Below are positions 24,065 to 43,602 of a stretch of DNA of 64,000 nucleotides, one piece after another. Origin of the DNA: a virus; IMG/VR virus record IMGVR_UViG_3300028030_000008, positions 21,700 through 85,699 of that record; one strand, given 5' to 3'. A program made the translations under genes and the position numbers. The notes beneath the pieces were generated by a model. It saw only the letters and a program-made list of their open reading frames with translations. It was not told the DNA's origin and made no database searches. Numbering within the stretch: position 1 is the stretch's first letter; each line of letters starts with the position of its first letter.

Positions 24065-24472
24065 ATGTCAGCAGGTATGAATATTGGCGATAGAGAAGAT
24101 TATTGGCAATCTTATCGCTTCCCTACTACCCTTGATAAAGATGCCCCGCTGCATACATCTCCGCATTACACCGACAAACGTTTCAATAAAGAACAAGCAG
24201 TTTTTGGGAAACATCCAAAATCGCGGTATGGACACGACAATCTGAAATATGATTATTCTGATCGTCTTTGGCAATGGGATTATGACAAAGCTGAAAAATC
24301 CGTTGAAGTTGCAAACGCCAGCGGCGCGACATTAAGAAGTTGCAAACGGTACGAGGCCTATCTGTCTGCATACTTTAATAAGCCAATCGAGATTAAACAC
24401 ATTATTGCAGGTGTCAATCGTGGTAATGGTTATCCGTATTGTGTATTTGGCTACAAAAGCGCAGACAGTTAA
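24065..24472 (+). CDS. Gene cassette 3 ORF (own attC missing)
   Basis: Starts after GTTATAC core; no matching inverse core downstream. Confidence 0.6.
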   Translation: MSAGMNIGDREDYWQSYRFPTTLDKDAPLHTSPHYTDKRFNKEQAVFGKHPKSRYGHDNLKYDYSDRLWQWDYDKAEKSVEVANASGATLRSCKRYEAYLSAYFNKPIEIKHIIAGVNRGNGYPYCVFGYKSADS

Positions 24473-24495
24473 TAGCTTCAACCTTAAAATTTCAG

Positions 24496-24536
24496 CTATC
24501 CACAGGTTATCCACAGAAAGAGGTGAGTTATCCACA
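24496..24536 (+). promoter_or_regulatory. Three DnaA boxes
   Basis: CTATCCACA 24496, TTATCCACA 24507 and 24528. Confidence 0.7.
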
Positions 24537-24544
24537 GGCAAAAG

Positions 24545-24572
24545 TTGCAAAATAGCACACAATTCCTATAAT
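24545..24572 (+). promoter_or_regulatory. Promoter of tRNA cluster
   Basis: TTGCAA-16bp-TATAAT. Confidence 0.65.
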
Positions 24573-24585
24573 ATCAAGTAATCAT

Positions 24586-24657
24586 TGCGGAATAGCTTAA
24601 CGGTAGAGCGCCAGAATCATAATCTGGATGTTGCAGGTTCAAATCCCGCTTCCGCAA
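24586..24657 (+). tRNA. tRNA with CAT anticodon (Met or Ile2)
   Basis: Cloverleaf: TGCGGAA/TTCCGCA, CCAGA-atCATaa-TCTGG, GCAGG-TTCAAAT-CCCGC. Confidence 0.9.
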
Positions 24658-24737
24658 CATGACCTTAGAGATAACCGAGTTCAATAAGGTCATTCTAATC
24701 TAAGTTGAACGGACGGTGACAGCCGGAGAGACGACGT

Positions 24738-24858
24738 GCAGGCGTAGCAGAATGGGTATATGCCATGTCGAAAGACGAGGGGATGTCACGGACGGGTGTT
24801 CGGATGGGTTCGAGTCCCAGCTTCTCCTAGTGTAAGGTTAGATTCCTTGCCGCCTGTA
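24738..24858 (+). ncRNA. tRNA-like RNA with nested second T-arm in place of anticodon arm
   Basis: GCAGGCG/CGCCTGT acceptor, D arm, GTAAGG-TTAGATT-CCTTGC; inner TGGG-TTCGAGT-CCCA. Confidence 0.65.
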
Positions 24859-24874
24859 TTTAAATAAACCGAAG

Positions 24875-25026
24875 ATGGCAGCGGCGTGTGGGAAACGCTA
24901 TGACTGGGAGTAGCAAATGGTTGGTGTCACTACCCTGAAACGGACCAACGTGAAACGCGAGACTGGTAAAACAGTGCCGTACAATGGATTGACCAACCAA
25001 AGCCGGTTCAAATCCGGCCTGCCATT
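24875..25026 (+). ncRNA. tRNA-like RNA with about 100-nt insert replacing anticodon arm
   Basis: ATGGCAG/CTGCCAT, GCGT/ACGC D stem, GCCGG-TTCAAAT-CCGGC; insert has TGGTTGGT/ACCAACCA stem. Confidence 0.65.
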
Positions 25027-25045
25027 CAAAAAAGCAACTGAAAAT

Positions 25046-25074
25046 TTGCAACAACAAATGTAACATGCTATAAT
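25046..25074 (+). promoter_or_regulatory. Sigma70-type promoter
   Basis: TTGCAA-17bp-TATAAT with TG. Confidence 0.75.
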
Positions 25075-25086
25075 TTCTTTAAGCCG

Positions 25087-25267
25087 TTGGCCCCGGCTAA
25101 AGAGACAAAGCGAACAATAGACTTCTGTTTTTCTATAGGTGTTGGTTGTTTGTTGGTTTTAGCTGAAAAGCAAAAAGCCTTTGTCTCGCAACCAACAATG
25201 GGCCTAACCAACATCTATAGAAGCGCAGAAGTTTTTTTATTGCCAAAAGAAAGTCCGGGGAGGCAAA
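25087..25267 (+). ncRNA. C4/CI-like antisense leader
   Basis: Long hairpin 25121-25232 whose loop CTTTGTCTC complements upstream GAGACAAAG. Confidence 0.55.
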
Positions 25268-25474
25268 ATGCAAACAGTGCAGCTAAAATCAATCACAGTA
25301 ATTGCAAACAAGCAAACCGTAGAAATTCCTCGTCATGAATTAAAGGTTGTTGATGGTGGATTTGAGTATGCCGACTTATTTATACCAATCCCAGAACCAG
25401 TAATGACAACTAATAAATACCCCGGATTCGTAATGTCTCTCAAGGAAGCTCTACAATGCAAAAAGAGTTACTAA
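25268..25474 (+). CDS. Small protein behind antisense-type leader
   Basis: GGGAGG RBS. Confidence 0.55.
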   Translation: MQTVQLKSITVIANKQTVEIPRHELKVVDGGFEYADLFIPIPEPVMTTNKYPGFVMSLKEALQCKKSY

Positions 25475-41575: not shown

Positions 41576-42935
41576 GTCAACTACATATCGACTAAAAGTC
41601 GGTAACTTGCCCGTCCGGTTGAAAACCGGCTAAAGAATTAGCCGAACCAGCGTGCTTAAGGGGCGGTTGACACGCCCCATCACCGACCAGGTCTTGCCTG
41701 GCGATGATACCGCGCAATCTAATGTTGCGGGCGGCATTTAGGTCAGAATTAGCAGAGTAACCGCAAGCTCCACACTTAAAATTATGACGCTTACGATTAG
41801 ACTTGGCAACAAAACCGCATACAGAACAACCCTGAGACGTGTGCTTTGGATCAATCTTGATGACCTCAAAGCCTTCGCTTCTGGCTTTGTAGCTAATAAA
41901 TTCATCAAGTTGATAGAAAGCCCATTGATTAAGGTCAGTACGGAACGCCTTACGCAGTTTGCGTCCCTTCCTGATACCCTTCAAATCTTCAAGGGCAATC
42001 ATTGGGTCGCCAGTCTCTTTAGCAAACTCAATAATGCGCTTACTGATAACGTGATTTGTATTCTTGGTAAAACGCGCTTGCTTTCCGCTTTGCCGTTTCA
42101 GAACGCGCCTGATGGAGCGCGTGTTCTTCTGTGCCTTCTTCCTTTGGAGGCTAGAGCGCGTTTTTTGATAGCGACCTCTAACGTGTTTCGTTTGACCGCC
42201 GCCAAAAAACAAACTACGTTTACCATCGGTCACAACAGCAAGATTGTTAATCCCCCTGTCAATACCGATAACCGCATCATTTGGCTTGCTAATTTCCGCT
42301 ACTTCCTTTTTGAACGTTACGGAAAGAAATACGCCGCGCCTGGAAACGTGAAGCCTTGCATCTCCAAGCTGCCAATCAGCAAGATATTCTTGCAACTTGG
42401 GTTCACCCTGAAATGTGACCCCTTTAATTCTGCCTGCGGTAGTCCAGATACTAAGGCCGGTTTTCTTGAAACCGAAGTCCCGTTCACGCGCCCCGCCTTG
42501 AAGCACAACCGCCGCATTTTTGAAATGTATTGGCTTCTTTGGCATCTTTTTGGCGGTACGCATTGCCTTGTACTTGGATGTAACGAACCTGAACAGGCTG
42601 CCAGTTACTTGCGCGGACAATCCGTAATCGGCCTTAACCTGATGGTAAATCAGCTTATGCAGCTTTACAGGATTAAGGATATTACCATTATCAAAAGCTA
42701 CCTTACTGGCAAAGTTACAAGCATCATTCCATGCCCTGATAGTGTCAATGGCGGTTTGCCTGTCAAGATTTATTTTAATCTTTGTAGCGCGTATAATATC
42801 CATATAGTAATTATAGCACAAGCTATAGGGATATGCAAATATATTATTGCGAGGCTGGGAAGTTACCCAAACTACGGGCGACCCGCTATCCCCCGTATCG
42901 CTTAAAGGCGGTAGTTCCTCGCGGGGGGAAAGACT
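41576..42935 (-). mobile_element. Non-autonomous IS200/IS605-family (tnpB-only) element
   Basis: Right end hairpin CGACT-ttt-AGTCG then GTAGTTGAC; left-end-like hairpin about 42885-42930; no tnpA; left boundary approximate. Confidence 0.75.
41592..42803 (-). CDS. tnpB: TnpB RNA-guided nuclease
   Basis: IGIDRG, IALEDL, TSQGCSVCG..CGACG, NSDLNAARNI; RuvC D-E-D intact. Confidence 0.95.
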   Translation of the reverse strand: MDIIRATKIKINLDRQTAIDTIRAWNDACNFASKVAFDNGNILNPVKLHKLIYHQVKADYGLSAQVTGSLFRFVTSKYKAMRTAKKMPKKPIHFKNAAVVLQGGARERDFGFKKTGLSIWTTAGRIKGVTFQGEPKLQEYLADWQLGDARLHVSRRGVFLSVTFKKEVAEISKPNDAVIGIDRGINNLAVVTDGKRSLFFGGGQTKHVRGRYQKTRSSLQRKKAQKNTRSIRRVLKRQSGKQARFTKNTNHVISKRIIEFAKETGDPMIALEDLKGIRKGRKLRKAFRTDLNQWAFYQLDEFISYKARSEGFEVIKIDPKHTSQGCSVCGFVAKSNRKRHNFKCGACGYSANSDLNAARNIRLRGIIARQDLVGDGACQPPLKHAGSANSLAGFQPDGQVTDF

Positions 42936-42972
42936 ATAGAGAGGGTGCGCCCGTTGGTTGAAAGGAGTGCAA

Positions 42973-43602
42973 ATGAATACATACCATAAAATTCAAACCG
43001 TTTTTAAGCGAGACCCAAATAACAAATACAAGACACTGTTACTCGGCGAATACGCATTAAGGGAATTTGAGTATCTTGCCAACAACGAGTGGGTTTTCAC
43101 TGAAAAGATTGATGGTACAAACATCAGAGTGATGTTCGATGGAGAAAGAATTACATTTGGCGGCAAAACTGACCGCGCTCAAATTCCAGCGCCTCTTGTT
43201 GCCCGGTTGAATGAGGTGTTTTTACCGGAGACAAGCTTATTCAAGGAAAAGTTCCCTGATGGAGTATGTCTGTACGGGGAGGGGTATGGCGCAAAAATCC
43301 AGAAAGGTGGAGGAAACTATCGCCAAGACCAAGACTTTGTTTTGTTTGATGTAAAAATTGGAGATTGGTGGTTACAGCGCGAGGATGTTCACCAAATAGC
43401 AATTGAGCTCGGGATTGACGTTGTGCCAATTATTGGCAGTGGAACGTTGCCGGAAATGGTTGATATTGTTTCTAGGGGATTTAATTCGACTTGGGGTGAT
43501 TTTGTTGCGGAAGGCATTGTTGCTCGCCCGAAAGTAGAATTAAAAACTCGTGGCGGTAATCGAATTATCACAAAAATAAAGCACAAAGATTTCACGAAAT
43601 GA
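42973..43602 (+). CDS. RNA ligase (Rnl2-like nucleotidyltransferase domain)
   Basis: TEKIDGTN, LYGEGYG, FVLFDV, AEGIVARP, TKIK. Confidence 0.85.
   Translation: MNTYHKIQTVFKRDPNNKYKTLLLGEYALREFEYLANNEWVFTEKIDGTNIRVMFDGERITFGGKTDRAQIPAPLVARLNEVFLPETSLFKEKFPDGVCLYGEGYGAKIQKGGGNYRQDQDFVLFDVKIGDWWLQREDVHQIAIELGIDVVPIIGSGTLPEMVDIVSRGFNSTWGDFVAEGIVARPKVELKTRGGNRIITKIKHKDFTK

What the first reader, a model, noticed from the sequence alone, without database searches (positions are those of the whole stretch)
24875..25026. tRNA scaffold carrying a ~100-nt structured insert
Seen: perfect 7-bp acceptor and canonical T arm flank an insert with TGGTTGGT/ACCAACCA stem and inner hairpins (CGTGAAACG, ACTGGTAAAACAGT). 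Too short for tmRNA or a group I intron. Inference: tRNA shell used to stabilise a cargo RNA, or a non-canonical intron that the phage RNA ligase (42973) might seal.
Basis: partly seen in the sequence, partly recalled or inferred. Interest (0 to 1): 0.7.

Follow-up and report, generated by a model that had tools for sequence, protein, structure and literature searches.

The report
Anticodon-less tRNA-shaped phage RNA gene
An uncultured hydrothermal-vent phage carries, right after a normal tRNA gene, a 152-base gene for an RNA that keeps the upper body of a tRNA but has a knotted 100-base domain where the anticodon arm should be. It resembles the long-known but unexplained "stable RNAs" of phages T4 and T5, and its job is unknown.

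Summary

ARAGORN with introns allowed finds only this and the neighbouring tRNA-Met in 64 kb, and nothing in 15 shuffles.

Contigs of about 94%-identical relatives from three other sequencing runs (two other studies) differ at 11 sites:
- three are haplotype-consistent compensatory pairs, one in the T stem and two in a new helix (24906-13/24930-35);
- three keep pairing as G-U;
- two are unpaired;
- none breaks a pair.

The "anticodon" GGG proposed by ARAGORN is one strand of that covarying helix and reads GAG in the relatives. So this is not a decoding tRNA and not an intron.

Together with the new helix it forms a pseudoknot.

There is no Rfam hit even at E<=10, no sequence homologue in any collection searched, and no expression data.

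Best reading: a tRNA-framed, non-decoding RNA that the tRNA maturation enzymes would process. It is built like T5 RNA1 and T4 species 1 RNA. Its function is inferred only.

This scan has flagged similar "tRNA frames" in many other phages, but never this sequence.

The parts
24545..24572 (+). Sigma-70-type promoter (TTGCAA, 16 nt, TATAAT) that heads the RNA cluster
   Evidence: Both hexamers are unchanged in the relatives.
24586..24658 (+). Canonical tRNA-Met (CAU), first gene of the cluster
   Evidence: ARAGORN; Rfam RF00005, 66.7 bits.
24738..24828 (+). Neighbouring second tRNA-shaped RNA. It is the subject of another finding and is context only here.
   Evidence: ARAGORN at a lowered threshold; weak tRNA-Sec-like hit, 18.4 bits. 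In relative X3, T24822G and T24823C improve its acceptor pairing.
24875..25026 (+). The tRNA-shaped RNA gene, from acceptor base 1 to discriminator U
   Evidence: In relative X2 the sequence becomes unlike at 25027-25029, directly after the discriminator.
24875..24881 (+). Acceptor stem, 5' strand; pairs with 25019-25025
   Evidence: Seven Watson-Crick pairs. A24880G in X2 keeps the pair as G-U.
24884..24898 (+). D arm: 4-bp stem GCGU/ACGC with loop GUGGGAA (G18 G19 equivalents present)
   Evidence: It does not vary in the relatives, so it is untested by covariation.
24906..24935 (+). Helix H1: GGG(AG)UAG / CUACCC with a 16-nt loop
   Evidence: Two haplotype-consistent compensatory changes: G24907A with C24934T in X2, X3 and X4, and G24913A with C24930T in X3. 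C24933T gives G-U in X2. Two such pairs in one helix anywhere has p = 0.0035.
24918..24925 (+). UGGUUGGU in the H1 loop; 5' strand of the long-range helix (pseudoknot stem 2)
   Evidence: Eight Watson-Crick pairs with 24992-99. Ensemble probability is 0.41 in the window and 0.89-0.995 in relatives X3 and X2.
24949..24959 (+). Small hairpin CGUG-AAA-CGCG
   Evidence: A24954G in X3 falls in the loop.
24962..24975 (+). Small hairpin ACUG-GUAAAA-CAGU, inside the 41-nt stretch 24955-24995 that is invariant in all relatives
24992..24999 (+). ACCAACCA; 3' strand of the long-range helix
   Evidence: A24996G in X3 keeps the pair as U-G.
25002..25018 (+). T arm: GCCGG / CCGGC with loop UUCAAAU
   Evidence: Compensatory C25003T with G25017A in X3. 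A compensatory pair in the tRNA-frame stems set beforehand has p = 0.027.
25019..25026 (+). Acceptor stem 3' strand plus discriminator U. No CCA is encoded.
   Evidence: The neighbouring tRNA-Met also lacks an encoded CCA.
25046..25074 (+). Next promoter (TTGCAA, 17 nt, TG-n-TATAAT), which marks the end of the RNA cluster
25116..25237 (+). Long hairpin followed by a U run. It is the likely terminator for read-through from the cluster and for the next unit.
   Evidence: it gave only spurious miRNA-like hits. Relatives X3 and X4 become unlike right after 25238.

Best explanation
This is a gene for a non-decoding, tRNA-framed structured RNA. It is probably transcribed with tRNA-Met and a second tRNA-shaped RNA from the promoter at 24545-72.

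The frame consists of a 7-bp acceptor stem stacked on a 5-bp T arm, with a D arm to form the elbow. This is the part of a tRNA that RNase P, the 3'-end trimming and CCA-adding enzymes and the T-loop modifying enzymes recognise. The host's tRNA maturation machinery would therefore cut the RNA out of the precursor at 24875 and after 25026, and give it the stability of a tRNA.

In place of the anticodon and variable arms sits a 103-nt domain. It has a 6-bp hairpin (H1) whose loop pairs with ACCAACCA 67 nt downstream, forming an H-type pseudoknot. The long connecting loop holds two small hairpins and a 41-nt invariant stretch. This domain is the working part and most likely acts by binding a protein.

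Shown: the frame, selection at RNA level on the T stem and H1, and the inability to decode.

Inferred: transcription, processing, stability, simultaneous formation of both pseudoknot stems, and any function.
For: - Frame present and above chance.
- Eleven variable sites in about 94%-identical relatives from three runs: 3 compensatory pairs, 3 G-U-preserving changes, 2 unpaired, 0 disruptive.
- Permutation tests: p = 0.0035 for two haplotype-consistent compensatory pairs in one helix anywhere, p = 0.027 for a compensatory pair in the frame stems, and about 2e-4 for both together.
- The would-be anticodon is base-paired and its middle base differs in the relatives.
- The antisense ORF 24860-25066 is not coding: 10 of the 11 changes would be non-synonymous and none is at a third codon position.
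- Gene context: a sigma-70 promoter and a tRNA directly upstream, and a new promoter directly downstream.
- Boundary: X2 diverges 1-3 nt after the discriminator.
- Precedent: T5 RNA1 (annotated 'tRNA-like stable RNA with unknown functions') and T4 rnaC lie in phage tRNA clusters and are called by ARAGORN in the same forced 'tRNA plus intron' way.
Against: - There are no expression data of any kind.
- All comparative evidence comes from three close relatives, so the D arm, the two small hairpins and any helix around 24940-80 are untested.
- The long-range helix rests on thermodynamics and one G-U-preserving change. An 8-bp perfect complement somewhere in 152 nt is expected about 0.16 times by chance (my estimate).
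- H1 has near-zero probability in nested folding, so H1 and the long-range helix could be alternative states.
- The frame deviates from tRNA at positions 8 and 14 (C and G where tRNAs have U and A), and a 7-nt linker follows the D arm.
- In run X4 the gene is interrupted or recombined at 24929/24930, so it is dispensable in at least one lineage.
- No binding partner or target was found: antisense matches in the phage genome are at chance level.
Confidence: 0.6

Rival explanations
1. tRNA-mimic decoy. The frame itself is the working part: it occupies a host protein that binds the tRNA elbow or acceptor, such as a tRNA-targeting defence nuclease or a maturation or modification enzyme. The insert mainly keeps the RNA out of translation.
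For: The frame is kept and the T stem covaries. Phage tRNA clusters are known to counter tRNA-targeting defences (my own knowledge, not tested here). The phage carries an RNA ligase gene, which in other phages repairs cleaved tRNA (my own knowledge).
Against: Known anticodon nucleases need an anticodon loop, and there is none. The insert is under selection too: two compensatory pairs in H1 and a 41-nt invariant stretch. A mere spacer would not need that.
Confidence: 0.2
2. Decaying tRNA gene: a former tRNA that suffered an insertion and now drifts without function.
For: No homologues exist beyond close relatives. The gene is interrupted or recombined in X4. Overall divergence (9 of 152 sites in X3) is similar to that of the flanks.
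Against: All 11 substitutions are structure-neutral and three are compensatory pairs, which drift does not produce. The acceptor, D and T arms carry no mismatch.
Confidence: 0.1
3. tRNA-Pro(GGG) gene with a 66-nt intron that is cut out, with the ends sealed by the phage RNA ligase.
For: ARAGORN with introns allowed makes this call at its default threshold. An RNA ligase gene is present at 42958-43602.
Against: The anticodon stem is weak (4 of 5 pairs, including one U-G) and the variable region is 21 nt and unpaired. GGG is paired with CCC in the 'intron' and covaries, so the relatives would carry GAG, a leucine codon reader, on the same body. No group I or other intron family matches at E<=10. 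The promoters are bacterial. ARAGORN makes the same forced call on T5 RNA1, which the T5 GenBank record annotates as a stable RNA of 144 nt.
Confidence: 0.04
4. Reduced tmRNA-like ribosome-rescue RNA.
For: It has an acceptor and T arm with a pseudoknot and no anticodon, which superficially resembles a tmRNA tRNA-like domain plus its first pseudoknot.
Against: No tmRNA family of Rfam matches at E<=10. ARAGORN finds no tmRNA at the default threshold and only a spurious permuted call with an unidentified tag at a lowered one. Pair 3:70 is G-C, not the G-U needed for alanine charging. There is no room for a tag reading frame. A normal D stem is present, which tmRNA lacks.
Confidence: 0.02

Closest known systems
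Phage T5 RNA1 (AY543070 30501-30644) and RNA2, annotated 'tRNA-like stable RNA with unknown functions'
   Same: It lies inside a phage tRNA cluster and is about 145 nt long. It has a 7-bp acceptor-like stem, a D arm, a T arm and a large insert where the anticodon arm should be. ARAGORN calls both as 'tRNA plus intron plus long variable region'. The function is unknown in both.
   Different: T5 RNA1 has a leucine-tRNA-type D loop (GGAAUUGGUAGAC) and two mismatches in its acceptor stem. The present RNA has a short GUGGGAA D loop, a perfect acceptor and discriminator U. No sequence similarity was found: the covariance model R1 finds nothing in the T5 locus. T5 RNA1 is annotated in its GenBank record as a stable RNA; this one has not been observed as RNA.
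Phage T4 species 1 and species 2 stable RNAs (rnaC, rnaD; NC_000866 70908-71171)
   Same: They are small stable RNAs encoded at the end of the phage tRNA cluster, next to each other, as the two tRNA-shaped RNAs are here. rnaC ends with a canonical T arm (CCGGG-UUCGAAU-CCCGG) followed by a terminal stem. Their function is unknown (annotation; my own knowledge).
   Different: The rnaC terminal stem is shorter and irregular, and its arms are long simple hairpins, not a pseudoknot. rnaD has no recognisable T arm. There is no sequence similarity.
Bacterial Y RNAs of the YrlA type (PMC4201824)
   Same: They are non-decoding RNAs with tRNA-like D and T arms and an acceptor stem. At least one, with a 7-bp acceptor, is cleaved by RNase P and receives CCA. 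Some are phage-encoded.
   Different: In YrlA the acceptor stem is a closed stem-loop and the RNA ends form the Ro-binding stem, so the topology is permuted. YrlA genes lie next to a Ro60/Rsr (TROVE) gene, and none is present in this phage record. No Rfam match was found.
tmRNA tRNA-like domain
   Same: An acceptor and T-arm minihelix without an anticodon, followed by pseudoknotted RNA.
   Different: See the fourth rival: no G3:U70, no tag frame, a normal D stem and no model match.
Engineered 'tRNA scaffold' for recombinant RNA expression (Ponchon and Dardel; method used in PMC3753655)
   Same: A foreign structured RNA replaces the anticodon arm of a tRNA, so that the cell processes and stabilises it like a tRNA. 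This is the mechanism proposed here for a natural RNA.
   Different: It is a laboratory construct and not a natural family. The resemblance is in working principle only and is untested here.

Membership tests
Canonical tRNA (Rfam RF00005) | 7-bp acceptor stem, D arm with GG, and T arm with a T-Psi-C-R-A-type loop | tested here: met
   Direct reading and the ARAGORN drawing. The T stem is supported by a compensatory change.
Canonical tRNA (Rfam RF00005) | Anticodon arm (5-bp stem, 7-nt loop) that presents a constant anticodon, and an overall match to the tRNA model | tested here: not met
   No RF00005 match even at E<=10. ARAGORN finds it at default settings only when introns are allowed. The proposed anticodon GGG is paired and reads GAG in the relatives.
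tRNA gene with intron (group I, or archaeal bulge-helix-bulge type) | A self-splicing group I core, or a bulge-helix-bulge motif at the exon-intron borders, and a credible mature tRNA after removal | tested here: not met
   No intron family matches at E<=10. The insert of 66-103 nt is shorter than group I cores (my own knowledge). The mature product would have a weak anticodon stem and a 21-nt unpaired variable region. Helix H1 spans the proposed border and covaries. A bulge-helix-bulge motif was looked for by eye only.
tmRNA | G3:U70 alanine identity pair, tag reading frame with resume codon, and a match to tmRNA models | tested here: not met
   Pair 3:70 is G-C. No tmRNA model match. ARAGORN reports none at the default threshold and only an implausible permuted call at 80% threshold.
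YrlA / bacterial Y RNA | Gene next to a Ro60/Rsr (TROVE) gene, with the RNA ends forming the Ro-binding stem and a closed acceptor stem-loop | tested here: not met
   No TROVE match in the 85.7-kb record, while the control genomes rang. The RNA ends form the acceptor stem. Defining features taken from PMC4201824.
Phage 'tRNA-like stable RNAs' of tRNA clusters (T5 RNA1/RNA2, T4 species 1), a kind defined by architecture and not by homology | Encoded in a phage tRNA cluster, on the same strand, directly beside tRNA genes | tested here: met
   tRNA-Met lies 217 nt upstream under one promoter.
Phage 'tRNA-like stable RNAs' of tRNA clusters (T5 RNA1/RNA2, T4 species 1) | tRNA acceptor and T-arm frame with a large insert in place of the anticodon arm | tested here: met
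   The same ARAGORN behaviour is seen on this RNA, on T5 RNA1 and on T4 rnaC.
Phage 'tRNA-like stable RNAs' of tRNA clusters (T5 RNA1/RNA2, T4 species 1) | Accumulates as a discrete stable RNA in infected cells | not testable with these tools
   No RNA run holds the sequence, and the host is uncultured.
Phage 'tRNA-like stable RNAs' of tRNA clusters (T5 RNA1/RNA2, T4 species 1) | Sequence or profile homology to T5 RNA1 or T4 rnaC (for example a leucine-type D loop) | tested here: not met
   Model R1 finds nothing in the T4 and T5 loci. The D loop is GUGGGAA against GGAAUUGGUAGAC in T5 RNA1, and the discriminator is U.

The most novel reading that the evidence does not exclude
The phage uses a tRNA frame as a natural expression and stabilisation scaffold, the same trick that RNA biochemists invented in 2007. 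The scaffold delivers a pseudoknotted aptamer-like domain that binds and redirects or blocks a specific host protein, for example a defence or RNA-metabolism factor. The two adjacent tRNA-shaped RNAs would then be two different 'cargoes' in one processing cassette.
Probability: 0.3. Interest if true: 0.75.

Novelty: new variant of a known kind. Interest (0 to 1): 0.45.

Why it matters
Stable tRNA-shaped RNAs without an anticodon have been known in the tRNA clusters of T4 and T5 for about fifty years, and no function has been assigned to them. This element shows the same architecture in an unrelated, uncultured vent phage, with a different frame and a pseudoknotted insert. It also shows that both the frame and the insert are kept by selection at the RNA level.

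Together with the many similar elements this scan has flagged in other phages, it suggests that "tRNA frame plus cargo" is a general phage way of making small RNAs. On its own this copy is an orphan with no expression data and no target. Its value is as one more well-delimited example, with a testable structure, for whoever takes up the function of the class.

Tried and rejected
- Rfam: gathering threshold on the whole window and E<=10 on 24400-25400. Nothing covers 24875-25026.
- Similar sequence elsewhere: blastn against 50,697 phage records found none for 801 nt and only chance 22-28-nt hits for the RNA alone at E<=10.
- Exact-pattern scans: the 3' frame and an invariant 24-mer of the insert found nothing in viral and metagenome contigs. 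A 22-mer of the T arm plus acceptor found nothing in genomes of 185,579 species, so the frame is not a copy of a known bacterial tRNA 3' half or an attachment-site relic.
- Relatives through neighbouring proteins: only distant ones (41-50% identity) or none. Their records hold no copy. The best match is 12.9 bits on an odd tRNA in L002, due mostly to the T arm.
- There is no second copy in the phage's own record.
Their differences are known only from the tables, which omit some variants.
- No RNA holder was listed among the sequencing runs.
- Antisense targets in the phage genome are at chance level: 33, 8 and 2 matches of 10, 11 and 12 nt, against 23, 5.6 and 1.4 in shuffles.
- Duplex formation with the neighbouring RNAs is no better than with shuffles.
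- ACCAAC/GTTGGT motifs recur in the downstream hairpin, but enrichment in the genome is only about 1.5-1.9-fold over a uniform-frequency expectation, so I did not pursue it.
- The 30-nt loose ends of the X4 and X2 breakpoints match nothing in the phage genome or in viral and metagenome contigs.
- Compensatory pairs counted without a structure set beforehand are not informative: three or more occur in 74% of random placements. Only the haplotype-consistent and co-located tests carry weight.
- Literature searches found no paper describing this RNA or a function for the T4 and T5 stable RNAs. The T4 genome review could not be read.

Full report
**Setting.** The window is bases 21700-85699 of an 85.7-kb IMG/VR virus record, about 90% complete. 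The sequencing runs that hold it are hydrothermal-vent metagenomes. The genes around the finding are small, mostly unknown phage early-type genes. Recognisable ones in the window include a 5'-3' exonuclease, two DNA methylases, an Mre11/Rad50-like pair, a TnpB gene and a small RNA ligase. Promoter-like sites are of bacterial sigma-70 type.

**The observation.**
- acceptor 24875-81 / 25019-25, seven Watson-Crick pairs;
- T arm 25002-18 with loop UUCAAAU;
- TGGTTGGT 24918-25 and ACCAACCA 24992-99;
- hairpins at 24949-59 and 24962-75.

So the whole upper body of a tRNA is present.

Default ARAGORN and Rfam see only the neighbouring tRNA-Met at 24586-24658. Even at E<=10 no Rfam family covers the element. 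With introns allowed, ARAGORN at its default threshold calls 24875-25027 a "tRNA-Pro(GGG) with a 66-nt intron". That and tRNA-Met are the only calls in the window and in the whole record. Fifteen dinucleotide shuffles of the window gave none. The frame is therefore not a chance match.

**Comparative evidence.** No homologue exists in cultured phages, IMG/VR, JGI metagenome contigs or 185,579 reference genomes. Relatives reached through neighbouring proteins are too distant and lack the RNA.

Public sequencing runs did help. Besides the probable source run, three runs from two other studies hold contigs about 94% identical over 24749-25238. Inside the RNA they differ at 11 sites, sorted here by which relatives carry them:
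- G24907A with C24934T, in all three relatives;
- G24913A with C24930T, in X3 only;
- C25003T with G25017A, in X3 only;
- A24880G, C24933T and A24996G, each turning a Watson-Crick pair into G-U;
- C24945A and A24954G, at unpaired positions.

Nothing breaks a pair.

The third pair lies in the T stem. The first two define a helix that no energy-based fold had proposed: GGG(AG)UAG 24906-13 with CUACCC 24930-35.

I checked how easily such patterns arise. Without a fixed structure, three compensatory pairs somewhere occur in 74% of random placements, so that count alone means nothing. When both partners must occur in the same relatives, two compensatory pairs within one helix anywhere has p = 0.0035. 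A compensatory pair in the frame stems set beforehand has p = 0.027. Both together have p of about 2e-4.

The antisense ORF 24860-25066 is not a gene: 10 of the 11 changes would alter its protein and none is at a third codon position.

**Structure.** C24945A, present in all relatives, destroys the local pairing (24918-22/24943-47) that the unconstrained fold of the window sequence prefers. A24996G keeps that helix as U-G.

The 5' strand of this helix lies in the loop of H1. If both form, the insert is an H-type pseudoknot:
- stem 1 is H1;
- loop 1 is CAAA;
- stem 2 is the 8-bp helix;
- the 56-nt third loop holds the two small hairpins and a 41-nt stretch (24955-95) that does not vary in any relative.

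Nested folding cannot show both stems, and they could instead be alternative states. A 4-bp helix 24940-43/24977-80 is energetically better than ARAGORN's "anticodon stem" 24899-02/24978-81, but neither is tested by variation.

**What it is not.**
- It is not a decoding tRNA. There is no anticodon arm, and ARAGORN's "anticodon" is one strand of H1 and reads GAG in the relatives.
- It is not an intron-containing tRNA.
- It is not tmRNA. No model matches, pair 3:70 is G-C, there is no tag frame, and a normal D stem is present.
- It is not a YrlA-type Y RNA. The topology is permuted and the record holds no TROVE gene, while the control genomes did respond.
- It is not an attachment-site relic of a host tRNA. 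No genome holds the 3' half, and the 5' strand and D arm are complete.

**What it works like.** The closest described things are the stable RNAs of the T-phage tRNA clusters.
- The T5 record annotates RNA1 (144 nt) and RNA2 as "tRNA-like stable RNA with unknown functions" among its tRNA genes.
- T4 has species 1 and species 2 RNAs side by side at the end of its cluster.
- T5 RNA1 has an acceptor-like stem, a leucine-type D arm, a T arm and a large insert. T4 rnaC ends in a canonical T arm.
- ARAGORN treats T5 RNA1 and T4 rnaC exactly as it treats the present RNA.

The resemblance is one of architecture and genomic position. There is no sequence or profile similarity, and the frame here is not leucine-type.

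The proposed mechanism is inferred from what the tRNA upper half is known to do. RNase P, 3' trimming and CCA addition would release the RNA from a tRNA-Met / RNA-A / RNA-B precursor and give it tRNA-like stability. Neither the tRNA-Met gene nor this gene encodes CCA. The insert would be the effector. A 7-bp acceptor stem is reported as the feature that lets a bacterial tRNA mimic be cut by RNase P and receive CCA (PMC4201824).

I found no RNA target in the phage and no pairing with the neighbouring RNAs above chance. I therefore favour a protein partner, with low confidence.

**Limits.** There are no RNA data. In run X4 the gene is split at 24929/24930 between two contigs that continue with unlike sequence for at least 470 and 319 nt.
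- The two unlike ends share AAGCCCA...TTTA, and the right end can form an imperfect hairpin, as the ends of IS200/IS605 elements do.
- On the other hand, the right-hand contig brings its own GGGUAG directly before CUAC(U)C, which would restore H1 with a tetraloop. That could mean a swapped 5' half and not an insertion.

I could not decide between these readings. Either way the intact RNA is not indispensable in every lineage.

**Earlier notes of this scan.** Similar "anticodon-less tRNA frames with cargo" have been flagged in many other phage genomes, and the neighbouring RNA at 24738-24858 was followed up separately. None shares sequence with this element. Those notes gave me the T5 RNA1 lead, which I checked in the GenBank record and with ARAGORN. 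One such earlier claim was later marked as partly fallen, which is a reason for caution about calling the class "widespread".

**Verdict.** This is a real structured RNA gene kept by selection. It is tRNA-framed and non-decoding, a new variant of a known but functionally unexplained kind of phage RNA.

Noticed in passing
window 24929-24930 (relative in run X4): Two X4 contigs each carry one half of the RNA gene and continue with unlike sequence for at least 470 and 319 nt. The unlike ends share AAGCCCA...TTTA, and the right end forms an imperfect hairpin, as in IS200/IS605 elements. The right contig also supplies its own GGGUAG partner for CUACCC. This is either a mobile-element insertion or a swapped 5' half; it is unresolved.
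   Followed up: partly
window 25027-25092 (relative in run X2): In X2 the sequence becomes unlike 1-3 nt after the RNA's discriminator and continues with what looks like a ribosome-binding site and an ATG. Another X2 contig lacks 25060-25091, which removes the -10 box of the promoter at 25046-74. The spot just after the RNA is a site of gene gain or loss.
   Followed up: no
window 25238 onward: Relatives in X3 and X4 are about 93% identical up to the end of the long hairpin (25237). After that they carry different DNA, the same in both, in place of the 68-aa ORF at 25268-25474.
   Followed up: no
window 24738-24744 / 24821-24827: In the neighbouring tRNA-shaped RNA, T24822G and T24823C in X3 turn a C-U mismatch and a G-U pair of the ARAGORN acceptor stem into C-G and G-C. 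This supports that stem over the alternative that starts at 24726. G24807A in its T stem has no listed partner change.
   Followed up: partly
L002:987-1061 (IMGVR_UViG_3300020047_006434): A distant relative phage carries an odd tRNA with a 4-bp anticodon stem and a 10-nt loop (ARAGORN 'tRNA-???'). Its T arm (GCCGG-UUCAACU-CCGGC) is nearly identical to the one here. It is the only weak hit of model R1 (12.9 bits).
   Followed up: partly
window 41592-42821 (-) and 42958-43602 (+): A TnpB gene (OrfB_IS605 plus the Cas12f1-like TNB domain) sits back to back with the small RNA ligase gene (PF09414). Its ends do not resemble the X4 breakpoint sequences.
   Followed up: partly
window 24860-25066 (-): A 68-aa antisense ORF overlaps the whole RNA gene. 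It is not coding: 10 of the 11 substitutions in relatives would be non-synonymous and none is at a third codon position.
   Followed up: yes
window 24617-24658: Short contigs at very high depth (up to about 1,100x) in X2-X4 match only the 3' part of tRNA-Met, with 7-9 mismatches. These are tRNAs of abundant cellular organisms in those samples, not the phage.
   Followed up: no
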